Shown: piece by piece, positions 1 through 47,900 of the stretch
How the letters are laid out: each line of letters opens with the position of its first letter
How positions within the stretch are numbered: position 1 is the first letter of the stretch
From: Octopus sinensis
Taxonomy: Eukaryota
Length of the DNA: 64,000 bases
NCBI RefSeq assembly: GCF_006345805.1
Contig: NC_043010.1
Coordinates: forward strand, 23,932,001 to 23,996,000
Reading direction: 5' to 3'
Notes under the pieces: generated by a model
The model's input: the letters and a program-made list of their open reading frames with translations, nothing else
Databases searched by the model: none
What the model was told of the DNA's origin: nothing
Translations under genes and position numbers: made by a program

Positions 1-507
1 CGAAAAAGTTAAAAATAGCAGTCAAAGACCGATTATTTCGATTTTCTACAAATATAACTCCACATATAACTTGTACATGTAACTCACATATGTAAAACAG
101 AAGGAAAATAACGAAAACAAAGTCTTCGGTCAGTTACGGACGCGTTTCTGGGTTAGAATTATAAATAAATTCATTCCCGTCCTCAGCGTAACGTTCCATT
201 AGATAGATTTGGAATTGTTATTTACACACCTCTTGCTTCCCGACCTCGCGCCATCGGAGATAGCAGGAGATAGTCAACACAGGCGAAATACATATAGACG
301 AATGGATTCGTATTTTCCCTCCAAATGAATTCGTATTTTCCCTTTGTTTTCGTTATTTTTATTTCTGTTTTACATATATGAGTTACATGTATGTGTTATA
401 TGTGGAGTTATATTTGTAGAAAATAGAAATAAGCGGTCTTTGACTGCTATTTCTAATTTTTCGATATGTTGCTAAGCAACCTGTTGCTTGCCCTTTTTAT
501 TTATTTG
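1..507. mobile_element. Fold-back non-coding element (PLE pLTR/retrozyme-like) with inverted arms, truncated by window start
   Basis: 1-122 is the imperfect reverse complement of ~342-463. A hammerhead motif lies between the arms. Parts are homologous to 48928-49410. Confidence 0.7.
133..192 (-). ncRNA. Type I hammerhead ribozyme motif
   Basis: Minus strand reads gttacg CTGAGGA c-ggg...gaatt..aattc...ccc-a GAAA cgc GTC cgtaac: 6-bp stem I, intact core, palindromic stem III (ACGCGT), GUC triplet. Confidence 0.8.
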
Positions 508-1087
508 CATATATATATATATATATATACTATATAATGTATATGATTCATATATATTAAATATGTATATATATGTGTGTACGTGTGCATGTATGCATAT
601 ATAGTGTATATATATATATATACACATATATATATATGTGTTTGTATTCTAGTGCACTATTGGATCAATCAAAATATTTTATTCTTTATATATATATGTT
701 TTGAGACTTATTTGCACATAGAATGAAGTCTATGTGCTATCTCTCAGCAAATAGACGTTTAAATTCGTTGATCAAAAACCGACGTAGGTGTTCGCCGCAG
801 TTTGTCCCTACAATCATAACATTCCAGTATTAAGCCGAACTTTTACACACACACGCGTGCGCGCACGTATGTATACTGTAAATGCGAATGTGTGTACACA
901 CTGGCCAATTTTAGCTCTCTTAGTTTTAAGTCATTTTTGTTTTACGTTTTGTCTGTTGTTTTCTTTGCTTTCTAAATAACAGTTTATTGGTGGCTATTTG
1001 TTTGAATTCTTTATCAAATATTTCCTACGAGAAACAATGAGAAATAGTGTCAATTCACCATGATTTCGTTTCTGGTTCAATCCTACA

Positions 1088-2290
1088 CGAGACAGCCGAA
1101 ATCTATGAAAAGTCTCTTAACACAAGCCCGAATACGCTCAACAACACAGAAGCCGTCAGTAAAAATATGTGGAAGACCCTATTGTGGGATATGCGATTAT
1201 CTAATTGAGGGGTCAGAGTTCTCCTTCAAACAGGGACAACAACGTTTCACAGTGAAAAGCACTTCACATGTGTTTCGGAGAACCTGATATACACACCAAC
1301 CTGCTCTGGCTGTCAAGAGCAATACATAGGCCAAACTAAAAATAGTCTAAGTAAAAGAATGGCTCTGCACAGATGCCAGGTTAAAATTCCCCAAAACAGA
1401 AAAATAGCATTCAGCCAACACATCAATATTTGTTCCAACAACAAAAATCCAAGCTTCAGAATTTTTCCCCTCTACTAATTCAGGGACGATACAACCTGGA
1501 GCCAGCGAATTAGTAAAGAAACTCTCTTTATTACAAAATACAGGGCCCTTCTGAACGCGTCTACGACAAACGATATATCCACCTCGGCCTTAGAATAGCA
1601 CAAATATACACGCAAATGTTAAAAATGATACACTCGAGAGATTCCCAAGAATTCATTAAAAAACAGTGCCAATCACTGCTATAATCCATTAGGTGCCAAT
1701 TTTAAGTCATTTAACACCTTACTACTTTCTACATTCATTCTTACTCTTTCTTCTTCTTCTTCTTCTTCTTCTTTTCCTTCTTCTTCTTCTTCTTCTTATC
1801 CTTCTTCTTCTTCTTCTTTTTCTTCTTCTCCCTTCTCCTTCCTAACTTTATCACTAATGCTCTTTAGAATAACACCTACACAAATTCTGTAAACAAAACA
1901 GTCTAAAGAAATATTTTCATGAATTGAACAGGGACTGCTACCAACCACTGACCATTCAAAATACTACTATCATGGCACTCCCAAATTATTATTATTCTCC
2001 TCCTCCTCCTCCTTCCTTTTTTTTCTTCTTGTTTGCTACCAATAATTCACGAGGACCTCGAACCCACAAGAATAAACAAGAGAGACAGAGACAGGCAGAA
2101 ACAAGGAAAACGCCACTTGTATTTGAACACTATACAAATATTCTTTTAAAAACAACTTTTCTTTTAATTTTTCTAAATTTAATTATTTAATTGTTACTGA
2201 TGAAATAGTCTCAATGACTGAAACCGGTAGTGAAATGTTTTTTATAAAATTATTTTAGCATTCTCTATCTTGACTTTTTTTCCATATATA
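1088..2290 (+). mobile_element. 5'-truncated Penelope-like (Neptune-type) element, GIY-YIG + 3' UTR/pLTR, frameshifted copy
   Basis: RQPKSMKSLLT..CGRPYCGIC linker, then GIY-YIG region broken by a frameshift near 1260. The 3' end 2040-2290 matches the pLTRs at 43290-43525 and 43875-44110. Confidence 0.85.
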
Positions 2291-44598: not shown

Positions 44599-45489
44599 AT
44601 ACATGTATATATATATATATATATATATCTATATATATATATATATATATATATATATTATATATTTATATATATATATATTATATATATATATATATAT
44701 ATATATATATATATATATATATATATATATATATATATATATTATATATATATATATGTGTGTGTGTTTATGTTTGTATGTGTGTGTGTGTATACATATA
44801 TGCATATATGTAAGTTTCCCATACCAACATGTTGCTATTAACTACAGCATGCAGCATAAACGTAAGTGCTGACTTAATTAATTCCCGTTTAATTGTATAC
44901 AGAGAGGATCCGTTTTAAAATCATGTTAATTAGTGTACAACAATCAATGGAAATAATTACATTTTTATTCCAATCATATTTTCTTATTAACTCGGTTCTC
45001 GATGGTTTTTCTTGCTAAGCTTCTTGTTTCGCAGCTCCAAATTCTTATTTTTCCCTTTCTGTGTAGAATATTATTCGACATACTGAAGTATAAATTCTAA
45101 ACAGACTTAGATTGCAGTCTGTATATTATATATATATATATATATATATATATATATATATAGAGAGAGAATATATGATAGAGATAGATAGATAGATAGA
45201 TAGATAGATAGATAGATAGATAGATAGATAACTACGTATATAGATATATATATATATATATATATATATATATATATATATATATATATATATATATATA
45301 ATATATATATGTTACATATATGTATGTGTGTATACACACACACATATGTTTATGAAAGTACATAGATTTATGCCTTTGTACTTGCGTTTTCTATTATACA
45401 TCCACGTTCCTATATAGGCACACATATATATGTACATGTAAATACATTCCTATACGTATCAATACGCACAACAAACATATACATATATA

Positions 45490-47900
45490 TAACTGGAAGG
45501 TTTACGAAAATAAACAAATGACGAAGGCAGGTGGAGTACAAACAAACAAATATATTAGTATGGCGCTCAGGAATAGAAATAGAACAAGTCTTTTACGTTT
45601 CGAGCCTACGCTCTTCGACTGAAAGATACACAGAAAAGAAACAAGGAGAGACACAAGGAGAGAAAAAAATGCGTGTAGGAGCTAACGGTCCATCATGGCG
45701 TTCTGACTTCAGGCAGAATCAGAGGTCAGAGGTCAGAGGTCAAACGTTAGACACTAGAGGGATAGTAGGGGAGATAACAGGGTCAAGTGACTTCGCCCCA
45801 ACACGCGTGTGTTTATAAGAGAGTATGTATGTGCGTGTGTGTATAAGAGAGTATAAATGTGCGTGTGAAAGAAGGTTGGTGGTCTGGACGTGTGTATGTT
45901 TGTATGTGTGGGTGTGGAGATATGGGGATGGGTGTGTAGGTGGTGTGTTGTGATATGATATGTGTATGTATGTGTAGGTGTAAAGATGTGGGATGGGTGT
46001 GTGGACGGTGTACTGTGGGTGGTGTGTTGTGATGTGTAATGTGGGCGGTGTGCTGTGGGTGGTGTGTTGTGATGTGATGTGTAATGTGGGCGGTGTGCTG
46101 TGGGTAGTGTGTTGTGATGTGTGGTGTAGTGTAGTGTGGTTTGATGTCGTGGGGAGGTGGGGGCGAGAGTGGGGAAAGCCCATGTGGGGTGTCGGTTAGA
46201 GTGGGGGTTGGGGTAGAGTGGGGGTTGGGGTAGAGTGGGGGTTGTGGGGATAGTGAGAGGGGGAGATAAGAGAGAGGAGGGGATGAGGGTGAGGGGAGAG
46301 AGGAGATGAGGGGAAAGGAGATGGAGGAGGGAGAGGAGAAGAAGGAGGGGAGAGGAGGAATAGGGGAGGGAAAGGAGGAGTGGAGTGGTAGGGAGAGGAG
46401 GAGGAGGAGGAGGAGGGGAGGGGGAGGAGGAGAGGAGGGAGGAGGAGGAGGAGAGGGATAGGAGAAGGTGAGTAATGGAGCAGAGAGAAAGTGAGAAGAG
46501 GAAGAAGGAAGAAGAAAGAAGAAAGAAGAGGGAAGAAGGGAAAGAAGGGAAGAGGAGGGAAAGAGAGTAGGGGGGAAAAGATGAAGGACTGAAGAGAAGT
46601 AGGAGTCGGGGTGAGGTTAGATGAAAAGGAGGGGGAGTTTAGCCCAAATGGCGTAAAAGAGCGAAGAGAGAAGATTGTCCCTGTTCACAGTGGAAGCGGG
46701 TATCTGGATGGCCTCTGTGCAAGGACAATCCGAACACAGACAGGTGTTGCAAGGAGTGACCGGTGGAGCGGAAATGGCGTGAGGTCTTCCGCGAACCGGT
46801 CAGCCAAGCGGCCTCCCGTTTGTCCGATGTACAGGGAATGGCAGAGAGAGCAGGAGATGCAATAGATGATATTGCTGGAGGTGCAGGTGAAAGAGTCAAT
46901 GATGCGATAGGGTCGATGATAGGTGCCGGTGAGGAGGGTGATGTTGGAAAGGTAAGGGCAAGTGCGGCAACGTGGGCGGGAGCAGGGGAACGAGCCAGGT
47001 TGGGAGGTAGGTTCAGGGAAGAAGCTGTGGACCAAGAGGTGTCGTAGGTTATGGGCTCGTTTGAAGGAGGGGAGGGGTCGGTTAGGGAAGAGGTGTGAAG
47101 TGGACGAGTCGGACTGGAGATGCCGGAAAGCTCGAAGAATGGTGCGTTGAAGAGGTAGGGTGTGGGGTGGTAAGTGAGGGGAAAATGGAGGCAGGAGACT
47201 GCAGGGCGGGTGCGGGGGGAGAGAGCAGATGTACTGTCTACGGAACGTACTCTGGCAAGGGCGGTATGGATAGTGGTGAGGGGGTATCCACGTAGGATGA
47301 AGTGGCAAGTTGAGACTGTGTCTCAAAGTCATGGTCGTCACTACAGTGCCTACGTAGACGGAGGAATTTGAAATAGGGAATGGAAAGCTTGGTGTGTTTC
47401 GGGTGGGAGGAAGAGAAGTTTAGGTATGAGTGTGAGTCTGTGTGTTTGTAGTGAATGGAGGTGGTAAGAGTGGAGTGATGAATGCTGACCGAAATGTCGA
47501 GGAAGGTGACAGAGGTGTTGGAGATAGTGGAGGTGAAGTGGAGGGCAGGATGGAAGGATTGAACGAAATAGTGGAAGGAATCTAGATGAGTGAGGTGGCA
47601 CCGATAATGTCGTCAATGTAACGATCGTATAGTTCGGTAGTGGGACCAGTGAAACTAGAGAATATTTGGGCCTCAACATAGCCAACGAACAGGTTCGCAT
47701 AGTTGGGGCCCATTCGCGTTCCTATGGCCACTCCTGAGACATGTTGGTAGAACCCGCCCGCGAACGAGAAGCAGTTAAGAGAAAGGACAAGTTCGGCCAG
47801 ACGAATGAATGTGAAGGTGTTGGGTTCGAGGTTGGGGCGGAGGTCGAGAAAGTGCTGAAGTGCCCGCAGTCCTTCGTGGTGAGGGATGACGGTATAGACG
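45490..47900 (-). mobile_element. 5'-truncated Neptune-type Penelope-like element (RT C-half, GIY-YIG, 3' UTR, pLTR)
   Basis: Minus-strand translation GVAIGTRMGPNYANLF...RYIDDII...FLDI...HYKHTD..YL...SSHP; CSRPRCRTC linker; IIYCISCSLCHSLYIGQTGGRLADRF. The pLTR at 45490-45665 has a degenerate hammerhead at 45589-45626. Confidence 0.93.

What the first reader, a model, noticed from the sequence alone, without database searches (positions are those of the whole stretch)
133..45626. Window-wide collection of ~17 type-I hammerhead motifs from several unrelated repeat families
Seen: hammerhead folds at 133-192(-), ~2194-2235(+), ~4220-4260(+), 14196-14230(+), 14523-14608(-), 17121-17158(+), 18184-18229(-), 18274-18319(+), 20242-20276(+), 36169-36210(-), 36979-37014(-), 39011-39058(-), 42680-42784(-), 43341-43382(-), 44015-44056(+), 44392-44434(+) and 45589-45626(-). 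Five have intact cores. Most have a tiny palindromic stem III (ACGT, ACGCGT, ACCGGT, ACAATTGT, ACACGTGT). Established: Penelope-like elements and metazoan non-LTR retrozymes carry minimal type-I hammerheads whose palindromic stem III favours dimeric cleavage. Inference: this genome hosts a large, diverse ribozyme-retroelement population that ORF annotation misses, with coding PLEs like those in this window as the likely helpers.
Basis: partly seen in the sequence, partly recalled or inferred. Interest (0 to 1): 0.85.

Follow-up and report, generated by a model that had tools for sequence, protein, structure and literature searches.

The report
Hammerhead relics of Penelope-driven retroelements
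The 17 self-cutting-RNA (hammerhead) motifs are real and belong to ten repeat families: three are the ends of coding Penelope-like jumping genes, and five non-coding families (four short tandem units and one likely tRNA-headed SINE) carry the same insertion signature, so they were likely copied by Penelope proteins; this is a known kind of system, here very abundant.

Summary
Observation confirmed. The 17 sites belong to ten genome-wide families (A-J), each with a complete type-I hammerhead as its commonest form; only 6 of the 17 window copies still fit it. A and C are 3' ends of Neptune-type Penelope-like elements (PLEs), H of a Hydra-clade PLE. B and I have no coding partner found. E, F, G, J are non-coding 350-580-bp retrozyme-type units; D is a likely tRNA-headed SINE. 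Non-coding families show the PLE 'tail' rule (two fixed 3' ends, one per arm of inverted insertions): F+G+J 25 of 26 classifiable, D 17 of 17, as in coding controls A and H (6 of 6 each). This supports PLE proteins as helpers. Several 'broken' cores are fixed family variants (U3-A8, C4, U6). Exact-core matches total about 33,000; a flank sample suggests about 1.8e5 motifs, the window being about 4 times richer than average. PLE hammerheads and retrozymes are published, and a 2026 preprint proposes their link. Cleavage and expression are untested.

The parts
133..192 (-). Family E hammerhead (canonical core, C10.1-A11.1 mismatch, long loop II, palindromic helix III) in a non-coding ~540-580-bp unit; element runs off the window start
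342..505 (+). Inverted second arm of the family E insertion, ending at a TA run without the tail
2194..2235 (+). Family A hammerhead, decayed copy (positions 3 and 9 and stem I altered); the apparent CUGAUGA is out of register with the family
3076..3504 (+). GIY-YIG endonuclease ORF fragment with Cys linker, Neptune-type PLE of family A (second copy near 1072-1574 in the local duplication 697-3081 / 2725-5081)
4220..4260 (+). Family A hammerhead, duplicate of 2194-2235
14196..14230 (+). Family B minimal hammerhead, decayed; PLE-type 3' end, no coding partner found
14523..14608 (-). Family H hammerhead (canonical core, U10.1-U11.1, long helix II); 3' end of a Hydra-clade PLE
17121..17158 (+). 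Family C minimal hammerhead with family-fixed U6 core and an extra nucleotide after A9; ends ~97 nt downstream at a TA run
18184..18229 (-). Family D hammerhead, tailed arm of an inverted insertion (18130-18373); family D is a likely tRNA-headed SINE, head absent in this copy
18274..18319 (+). Family D hammerhead, short-end arm of the same insertion
20242..20276 (+). Family B minimal hammerhead, two changes from the family form
35937..36364 (-). Family F retrozyme-type copy (363-bp unit plus tail), hammerhead 36169-36210 with U3-A8 core and extended bulged helix I
36979..37014 (-). Family C (older subfamily, A6 core, damaged stem II); GIY-YIG fragment ~700 nt upstream at about 37700-37870 on the same strand
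38856..39644 (.). Family J retrozyme-type insertion: 481-bp unit on the minus strand (hammerhead 39011-39058) plus inverted tailed arm 39486-39644; TA runs on both sides
42515..42826 (-). Family I 3' end with hammerhead 42680-42784 (canonical core, long helix II); AT-rich non-coding upstream in other copies, no coding partner found
43283..44115 (.). Family A inverted insertion: hammerheads 43341-43382(-) on the tailed arm and 44015-44056(+) on the untailed arm; U3-A8 core
44212..44598 (+). Family G retrozyme-type copy (353-bp unit), hammerhead 44392-44434; family core has C4 and C10.1-A11.1; this copy is mutated in GAAA and helix III
45589..45626 (-). Family C hammerhead at the 3' end of the PLE coded at 46685-47992
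46685..47992 (-). Broken Neptune-type PLE ORF (RT part, Cys linker, GIY-YIG), colinear with locus L032 down to the hammerhead

Best explanation
The motifs are mostly decayed type-I hammerheads at the 3' ends of Penelope-like retroelements and of non-coding units that carry the same insertion signature and were therefore likely copied by Penelope proteins. Inferred cycle: a PLE RT/GIY-YIG protein nicks AT-rich DNA, mostly (TA)n, and starts reverse transcription at either of two fixed internal sites downstream of the hammerhead. Early stops give the many 5'-truncated copies. When both strands prime, the result is two divergent arms, one ending at the near site and one at the far site (the tail). 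Retrozyme-type units E, F, G, J and the SINE-like family D supply no protein and would borrow this machinery. The hammerheads are predicted to cut tandem transcripts as dimers through the palindromic helix III, most plausibly in F, G and J, giving unit-length or circular RNAs. Cleavage, expression and the identity of each helper are not shown.
For: Coding link: L283 holds two family A hammerheads 4.4 kb apart around an RT + GIY-YIG ORF; 19 of 25 A loci hit the baits, which came from family A itself. H lies 3' of an ORF with DKT and CxCx5C, the Hydra marks of PMC8557442. C is colinear with a GIY-YIG ORF in the window and in L032. Tail rule, one short and one long end per inverted insertion: coding controls A 6 of 6 and H 6 of 6; I 3 of 3; D 17 of 17 loci; F 12 of 14 distinct (2 unclassifiable), G 10 of 13 (1 both short, 2 unclassifiable), J 3 of 3; F+G+J 25 against 1, binomial p 4e-7. 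Ends followed by a TA run: F 34 of 40, G 19 of 42, J 16 of 16 (overlapping J loci can count one end twice). PMC11167929 shows in vitro that the tail spans two RT start sites and calls it unique to PLEs. Longest ATG ORFs of E, F, G, J units are 29, 18, 84, 52 aa. The hammerhead dimer equals the predicted dimer minimum for F, G, J. Stem II keeps pairing between subfamilies: G-C to A-U in A (13 A-U, 81 G-C, 4 G-U, 2 mispaired among the 100 listed) and in F, one event each.
Against: No coding partner for B or I, nor any for D, E, F, G, J. No clear sequence homology between retrozyme units and the PLE 3' ends (best cross-class hit F-I, 23 nt, E 0.011). The one B inverted pair with clear ends shows no tail, and C gave no pair. 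Only 6 of 17 window copies fit. For A-E, H, I the active dimer lies 2.6 to 39 kcal/mol above the dimer minimum (overstated for E, H, I, whose inner loop pairs were left out). Arrays are mosaic, with period-2 and period-5 patterns, which does not fit rolling on one monomer circle. In PMC11167929 hammerhead cleavage was not needed for insertion in vitro. Loci were the best-scoring matches, so young, full copies are over-represented.
Confidence: 0.85

Rival explanations
1. Identity as above, but the hammerheads are passengers: uncut read-through RNA is the template and cleavage is weak, protein-dependent or irrelevant to copying.
For: PMC11167929: catalytic mutants insert normally and cleavage needs the protein. 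A family with thousands of copies has U at core position 6, where A6C strongly lowers activity (PMC3088659, PMC7151607). Mosaic arrays suggest multimeric templates.
Against: Ten unrelated families keep the fold; U3-A8 and stem II changes keep pairing; F, G, J keep an extended bulged helix I and a favoured dimer.
Confidence: 0.3
2. The tandem units are satellites grown in place by unequal crossing-over from leftover PLE termini, not mobile elements.
For: Higher-order periodicity in two arrays; scenario offered in bioRxiv 10.64898/2026.07.22.740005.
Against: Copies are dispersed over many contigs, have variable 5' ends, inverted arms and two fixed 3' ends, often at TA runs. Local amplification may still lengthen arrays afterwards.
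Confidence: 0.07
3. The non-coding families are moved by LINEs (L1/Tx1-type or other non-LTR elements in the window), as ordinary SINEs are.
For: LINE ORFs are present in the window; LINE insertions can also have 5' inversions (established knowledge); D has a SINE-like head.
Against: No poly(A) or LINE-like 3' end was seen; the two-end tail rule matches coding PLEs A and H in the same genome.
Confidence: 0.05
4. The motifs are chance matches in AT-rich repeat DNA.
For: One extra descriptor hit inside a LINE ORF looks like chance; 11 of 17 window copies fail the descriptor.
Against: Shuffles give 0 to 0.1 hits; genome patterns give 20,491 against 0, 7,437 against 160, 3,069 against 0, 2,066 against 65 for reversed controls.
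Confidence: 0.01

Closest known systems
Minimal hammerheads in PLE pseudo-LTRs (Cervera and de la Pena 2014, PMC4209133)
   Same: Type I, tiny palindromic helix III, extra nucleotide after A9, U3-A8 variant, thousands of solo copies from truncated PLEs, opposite-strand pairs 100-700 bp apart (families A-D).
   Different: Higher counts than the 2,000-9,000 per genome reported there; family C has a fixed U6 core that I did not find in the passages read.
Metazoan non-LTR retrozymes (PMC7229834; bioRxiv 10.64898/2026.07.22.740005)
   Same: Non-coding, low-GC 350-580-bp units with a type-I hammerhead in tandem or partial tandem (E, F, G, J).
   Different: Here the PLE link is read from insertion structure. 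'Tail' occurs 0 times in both main texts, and inverted insertions are not discussed. No homology to a PLE terminus found, unlike 21 of 57 Xenopus families. Circular RNA not shown.
Neptune and Hydra PLE clades (PMC8557442)
   Same: C-terminal GIY-YIG; A has DKG and a Cys linker; H has DKT, an RW motif, CxCx5C; TA targets, inversions, one-sided tail.
   Different: Tails of H and I are about 90-100 nt rather than 30-40; H and I hammerheads have a very long helix II. Clades assigned by motif, no tree built.
Schistosoma Sm-alpha / Sj-alpha SINE-like hammerhead repeats (as reviewed in PMC6765202)
   Same: Promoter-type head followed by a hammerhead (family D).
   Different: D is dispersed, monomeric or head-to-head, has a minimal PLE-type hammerhead and a ~33-nt PLE tail.

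Membership tests
Type-I hammerhead ribozyme | Three helices around the core, open helix I | tested here: met
   Commonest form of all ten families; 6 of 17 window copies
Type-I hammerhead ribozyme | Canonical core CUGANGA / GAAA / UH | tested here: inconclusive
   Met in B, D, E, H, I, J; A and F have U3-A8, G has C4 (both described in PMC3088659), C has U6
Type-I hammerhead ribozyme | Self-cleavage | not testable with these tools
   Only folding predictions
Rfam RF00163 Hammerhead_1 | Score above gathering threshold | tested here: not met
   0 in window; 7 over cut-off among 74 scored candidates elsewhere in G000
EN+ Penelope-like element | RT followed by GIY-YIG, hammerhead 3' of it | tested here: met
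   A (L283), H (L180+L281), C (window, L032); GIY-YIG Pfam scores are below cut-off; not met for B and I in the loci seen
EN+ Penelope-like element | 5' inversion with one-sided tail | tested here: met
   A 6 of 6, H 6 of 6, I 3 of 3; no tail in the one clear B pair; no C pair
Hydra clade | DKT, RWK-like motif, CxCx5C linker, TA target | tested here: met
   Read in translations of L180 and L281 against PMC8557442 section 11
Hydra or Neptune clade | Phylogenetic placement of the RT | not tested
Non-LTR retrozyme | Non-coding tandem unit of a few hundred bp, one hammerhead per unit | tested here: met
   F 363, G 353, J 481 bp with full tandems; E only partial tandems in 3 of 25 loci
Non-LTR retrozyme | Expression as circular RNA | not testable with these tools
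   Only contigs available, none on record as RNA
tRNA-derived SINE (family D) | tRNA-like head with A and B boxes | tested here: inconclusive
   Box-like motifs (consensus recalled) in at least 13 arms of 11 of 25 loci; relaxed ARAGORN calls some, among many junk calls; default ARAGORN 0 of 7; no Rfam tRNA hit
tRNA-derived SINE (family D) | Pol III transcription; LINE-derived 3' end | not tested
   3' end follows the PLE tail rule instead; transcription not testable here

The most novel reading that the evidence does not exclude
Penelope proteins drive a whole guild of non-coding passengers in this genome, readable from the PLE-only tail: four retrozyme families and a tRNA-headed SINE whose partner is a Penelope element rather than a LINE. 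One family with thousands of copies has a fixed U6 core, pointing to protein-assisted or non-catalytic hammerheads. I found no report of either in my searches; Repbase/Dfam, the 2017 RNA Biology paper and supplements were not seen.
Probability: 0.5. Interest if true: 0.65.

Novelty: new member of a known kind. Interest (0 to 1): 0.45.

Why it matters
Who mobilises animal retrozymes is an open question answered so far by co-occurrence and homology. The tail rule is a simple genomic test that points to PLEs and names two predicted RT start sites per family that can be tested in vitro. A SINE moved by a PLE would widen the SINE-partner rule. With an estimated 1e5 or more motifs that Rfam misses, hammerhead relics are a sizeable unannotated part of this genome, and young families F and J are good assay material. 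Otherwise this is an expected feature of PLE-rich animal genomes.

Tried and rejected
Rfam scans of the window: no hammerhead at gathering score; the E-value list was dominated by microsatellite hairpins. Pfam found nothing in the four window PLE fragments; they were identified by tblastn and motifs. Ten upstream extensions for B, D, E, I, H gave a coding ORF only for H. GIY-YIG hits near L204 (B), L177 (H) and L170, L153 (I) were not accepted as links: wrong side, wrong strand or not shown colinear. The 'upstream extent' was inflated by other repeats and replaced. I first read A and I as tailless because the references stopped at the TA run; one search corrected this. The pattern was mis-spaced and is not used. 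Cross-family homology search found no PLE parent for E, F, G, J; B and C 3' parts are only weakly alike (6 of 500 shuffles reach the score). Expression: no RNA holder listed for family J; contigs cannot show cut sites. The 2017 paper on dimeric PLE hammerheads was not held. No covariance model or R-scape-type test was run. Hit 30504-30590 rejected as probable chance. Two of three look-ups of earlier findings returned nothing.
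Full report
Setting. The window is G000:C14:23932001-23996000 of a 2.72-Gb, microsatellite-rich animal genome. Named relatives of its PLE protein are from bivalve molluscs, or carry bacterial labels from metagenomes. From size and repeat content the host is likely an octopus; that is my inference and recall, not a call result.

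Observation. All 17 stretches exist. A strict descriptor gave 4 hits against 0 in 40 shuffles; a post-hoc, family-informed one gave 7 against a mean of 0.095 in 200. Rfam finds none at gathering score. The sites fall into ten families, each searched in the genome (top 39-40 candidates scored, 25-30 loci kept per family). In every family the commonest copy is a complete type-I hammerhead with a palindromic or near-palindromic helix III. Only 6 of the 17 window copies fit; the others carry private damage.

Core variants. A and F have U3-A8 (96 of the first 100 listed A matches; nearly all listed F-type matches). G has C4. C has U6 with all four bases at position 7 (first 100 listed). H and J have U-U, E and G have C-A at the base of helix II; B, C, D have an extra nucleotide after A9. 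U3-A8, U4C, U-U and the extra nucleotide are described (PMC3088659 passages, PMC4209133). A6C is described as low-activity (PMC3088659, PMC7151607 passages); A6U occurs 0 times in those two texts.

Coding partners. L283 has family A hammerheads 4.4 kb apart around an RT and GIY-YIG ORF with DKG and a Cys linker, Neptune-type by motif. H lies downstream of an ORF with DKT, an RW motif and CxCx5C, the Hydra marks. C at 45589 is colinear with L032 from the endonuclease to the hammerhead at 75-82% identity. B and I gave no partner.

Non-coding families. F (363 bp), G (353) and J (481) are dispersed tandem or partial-tandem units, J up to about 15 units; E (about 540-580) shows partial tandems in 3 of 25 loci. 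F, G and J have an extended bulged helix I (only F folds better than shuffles, z -5.1 against -0.8 and -1.0), and their hammerhead dimer equals the predicted dimer minimum. D is about 280 nt: tRNA-like head, AAT repeat, minimal hammerhead, 3' part. An exact 26-nt head motif occurs 1,236 times against 0 for the control. Its tRNA origin rests on box-like motifs; default ARAGORN and Rfam did not call it.

The PLE signature. PLE insertions are known to have 5' truncation, an inverted arm and a tail at one end only (PMC8557442 section 6); PMC11167929 shows the tail spans two RT start sites and calls it unique to PLEs. Coding controls obey it: A 6 of 6, H 6 of 6. So do I (3 of 3) and D (17 of 17 loci, ends at 49-74 and 90-120 nt). 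F: 12 of 14 distinct inverted insertions, 2 unclassifiable, after dropping one duplicate locus. G: 10 of 13, 1 with two short ends, 2 unclassifiable. J: 3 of 3, one joined from overlapping loci. Together 25 against 1, p 4e-7. The window's E insertion also has one tailed arm. Against: the one clear B pair has no tail, C has no pair, and no retrozyme is clearly homologous to a PLE end.

Arrays. One F-type array alternates with period 2 and one J array is mosaic with a period-5 pattern. This fits multimeric templates or later recombination, not one monomer circle; assembly indel errors blur it.

Abundance. Exact-core patterns: B+C 20,491 (control 0), mostly D 7,437 (160), A 3,069 (0), mostly F-type 2,066 (65), about 33,000 with a small possible overlap. 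In 757,742 bases from 233 of 272 loci (window-derived and overlapping loci dropped), 44 hits to families other than the one searched were found, 0 in a shuffle: about 65 per Mb, about 1.8e5 per genome, about 4 per 64 kb. Poisson error alone gives 1.3-2.4e5, and flanks of repeats may be biased. Published counts: 2,000-9,000 (PMC4209133), over 6,000 in a coral and 126,247 in axolotl (PMC7229834), 235 Rfam loci in giant squid (PMC6962438).

Mechanism. Shown: identity, coding links for A, C, H, non-coding nature of E, F, G, J, and the two-end rule. Inferred: priming by PLE proteins at two internal sites on nicked AT-rich DNA; dimeric cleavage; circles. PMC11167929 found cleavage protein-dependent and unnecessary for insertion in vitro, so the passenger rival stays at 0.3.

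Papers seen: PMC4209133 parts 1-2 of 4; PMC8557442 passages and sections 6, 11; PMC7229834 passages; bioRxiv 10.64898/2026.07.22.740005 parts 1-3 of 5 and a term search; PMC11167929 parts 1-2 of 4; PMC13282606 part 1 of 3; passages of PMC6962438, PMC3088659, PMC7151607, PMC6765202, PMC4758252, PMC8490949. No supplements were read; those of PMC4209133 and PMC8557442 list hammerheads by species and may cover these families or U6. The 2017 RNA Biology paper was seen as a title only. Octopus tRNA-derived SINEs from 1994 were seen only as a citation; D could be one of them.

Verdict. Real and well above chance; new members of known kinds. What it adds is insertion-level evidence that PLEs move retrozymes and a SINE-like family, plus a high count and a fixed U6 core. 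Interest 0.45.

Noticed in passing
window 38880-39335, run X2: 17 of 18 differences are A>G or T>C, clustered and at partial depth, as A-to-I editing of double-stranded RNA from inverted arrays would give; runs X1, X5, X15 show mixed changes. The run is only guessed to be RNA and is not from the same individual.
   Followed up: no
L001, L004-L007: An eleventh hammerhead family that does pass the Rfam Hammerhead_1 cut-off; L006 and L007 are 431 bp apart on one strand.
   Followed up: no
L284 (G000:C1:28192300-28195900) and L286 (G000:C1:143651300-143659700): Period-2 and period-5 patterns among retrozyme units, possible traces of dimeric or multimeric templates.
   Followed up: partly
L230, L231, L241, L246: Family D arms often join head-to-head at the very start of the tRNA-like head, forming long hairpins.
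   Followed up: no
window 48251-48424: Family I 3' fragment without its hammerhead, about 90% like 42501-42676; missed by the motif list.
   Followed up: partly
window 28841-33203 (-): L1/Tx1-type LINE with zinc-knuckle ORF1, AP endonuclease and RT; holds the chance hit 30504-30590.
   Followed up: no
window 53604-57015 and 58271-62922 (-): Two copies of a non-LTR element with RT and a C-terminal nuclease-like part, 93-98% alike, separated by a 444-bp tandem at 57207-58100.
   Followed up: no
window 12242-13507 and 20484-21817: Two mariner-type transposon copies, 89% alike, in opposite orientation.
   Followed up: no
L012, L030, L044, L069, L153, L204: Further Hydra-like PLE fragments (30-57% identity to family H), so the clade is diverse in this genome.
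   Followed up: no
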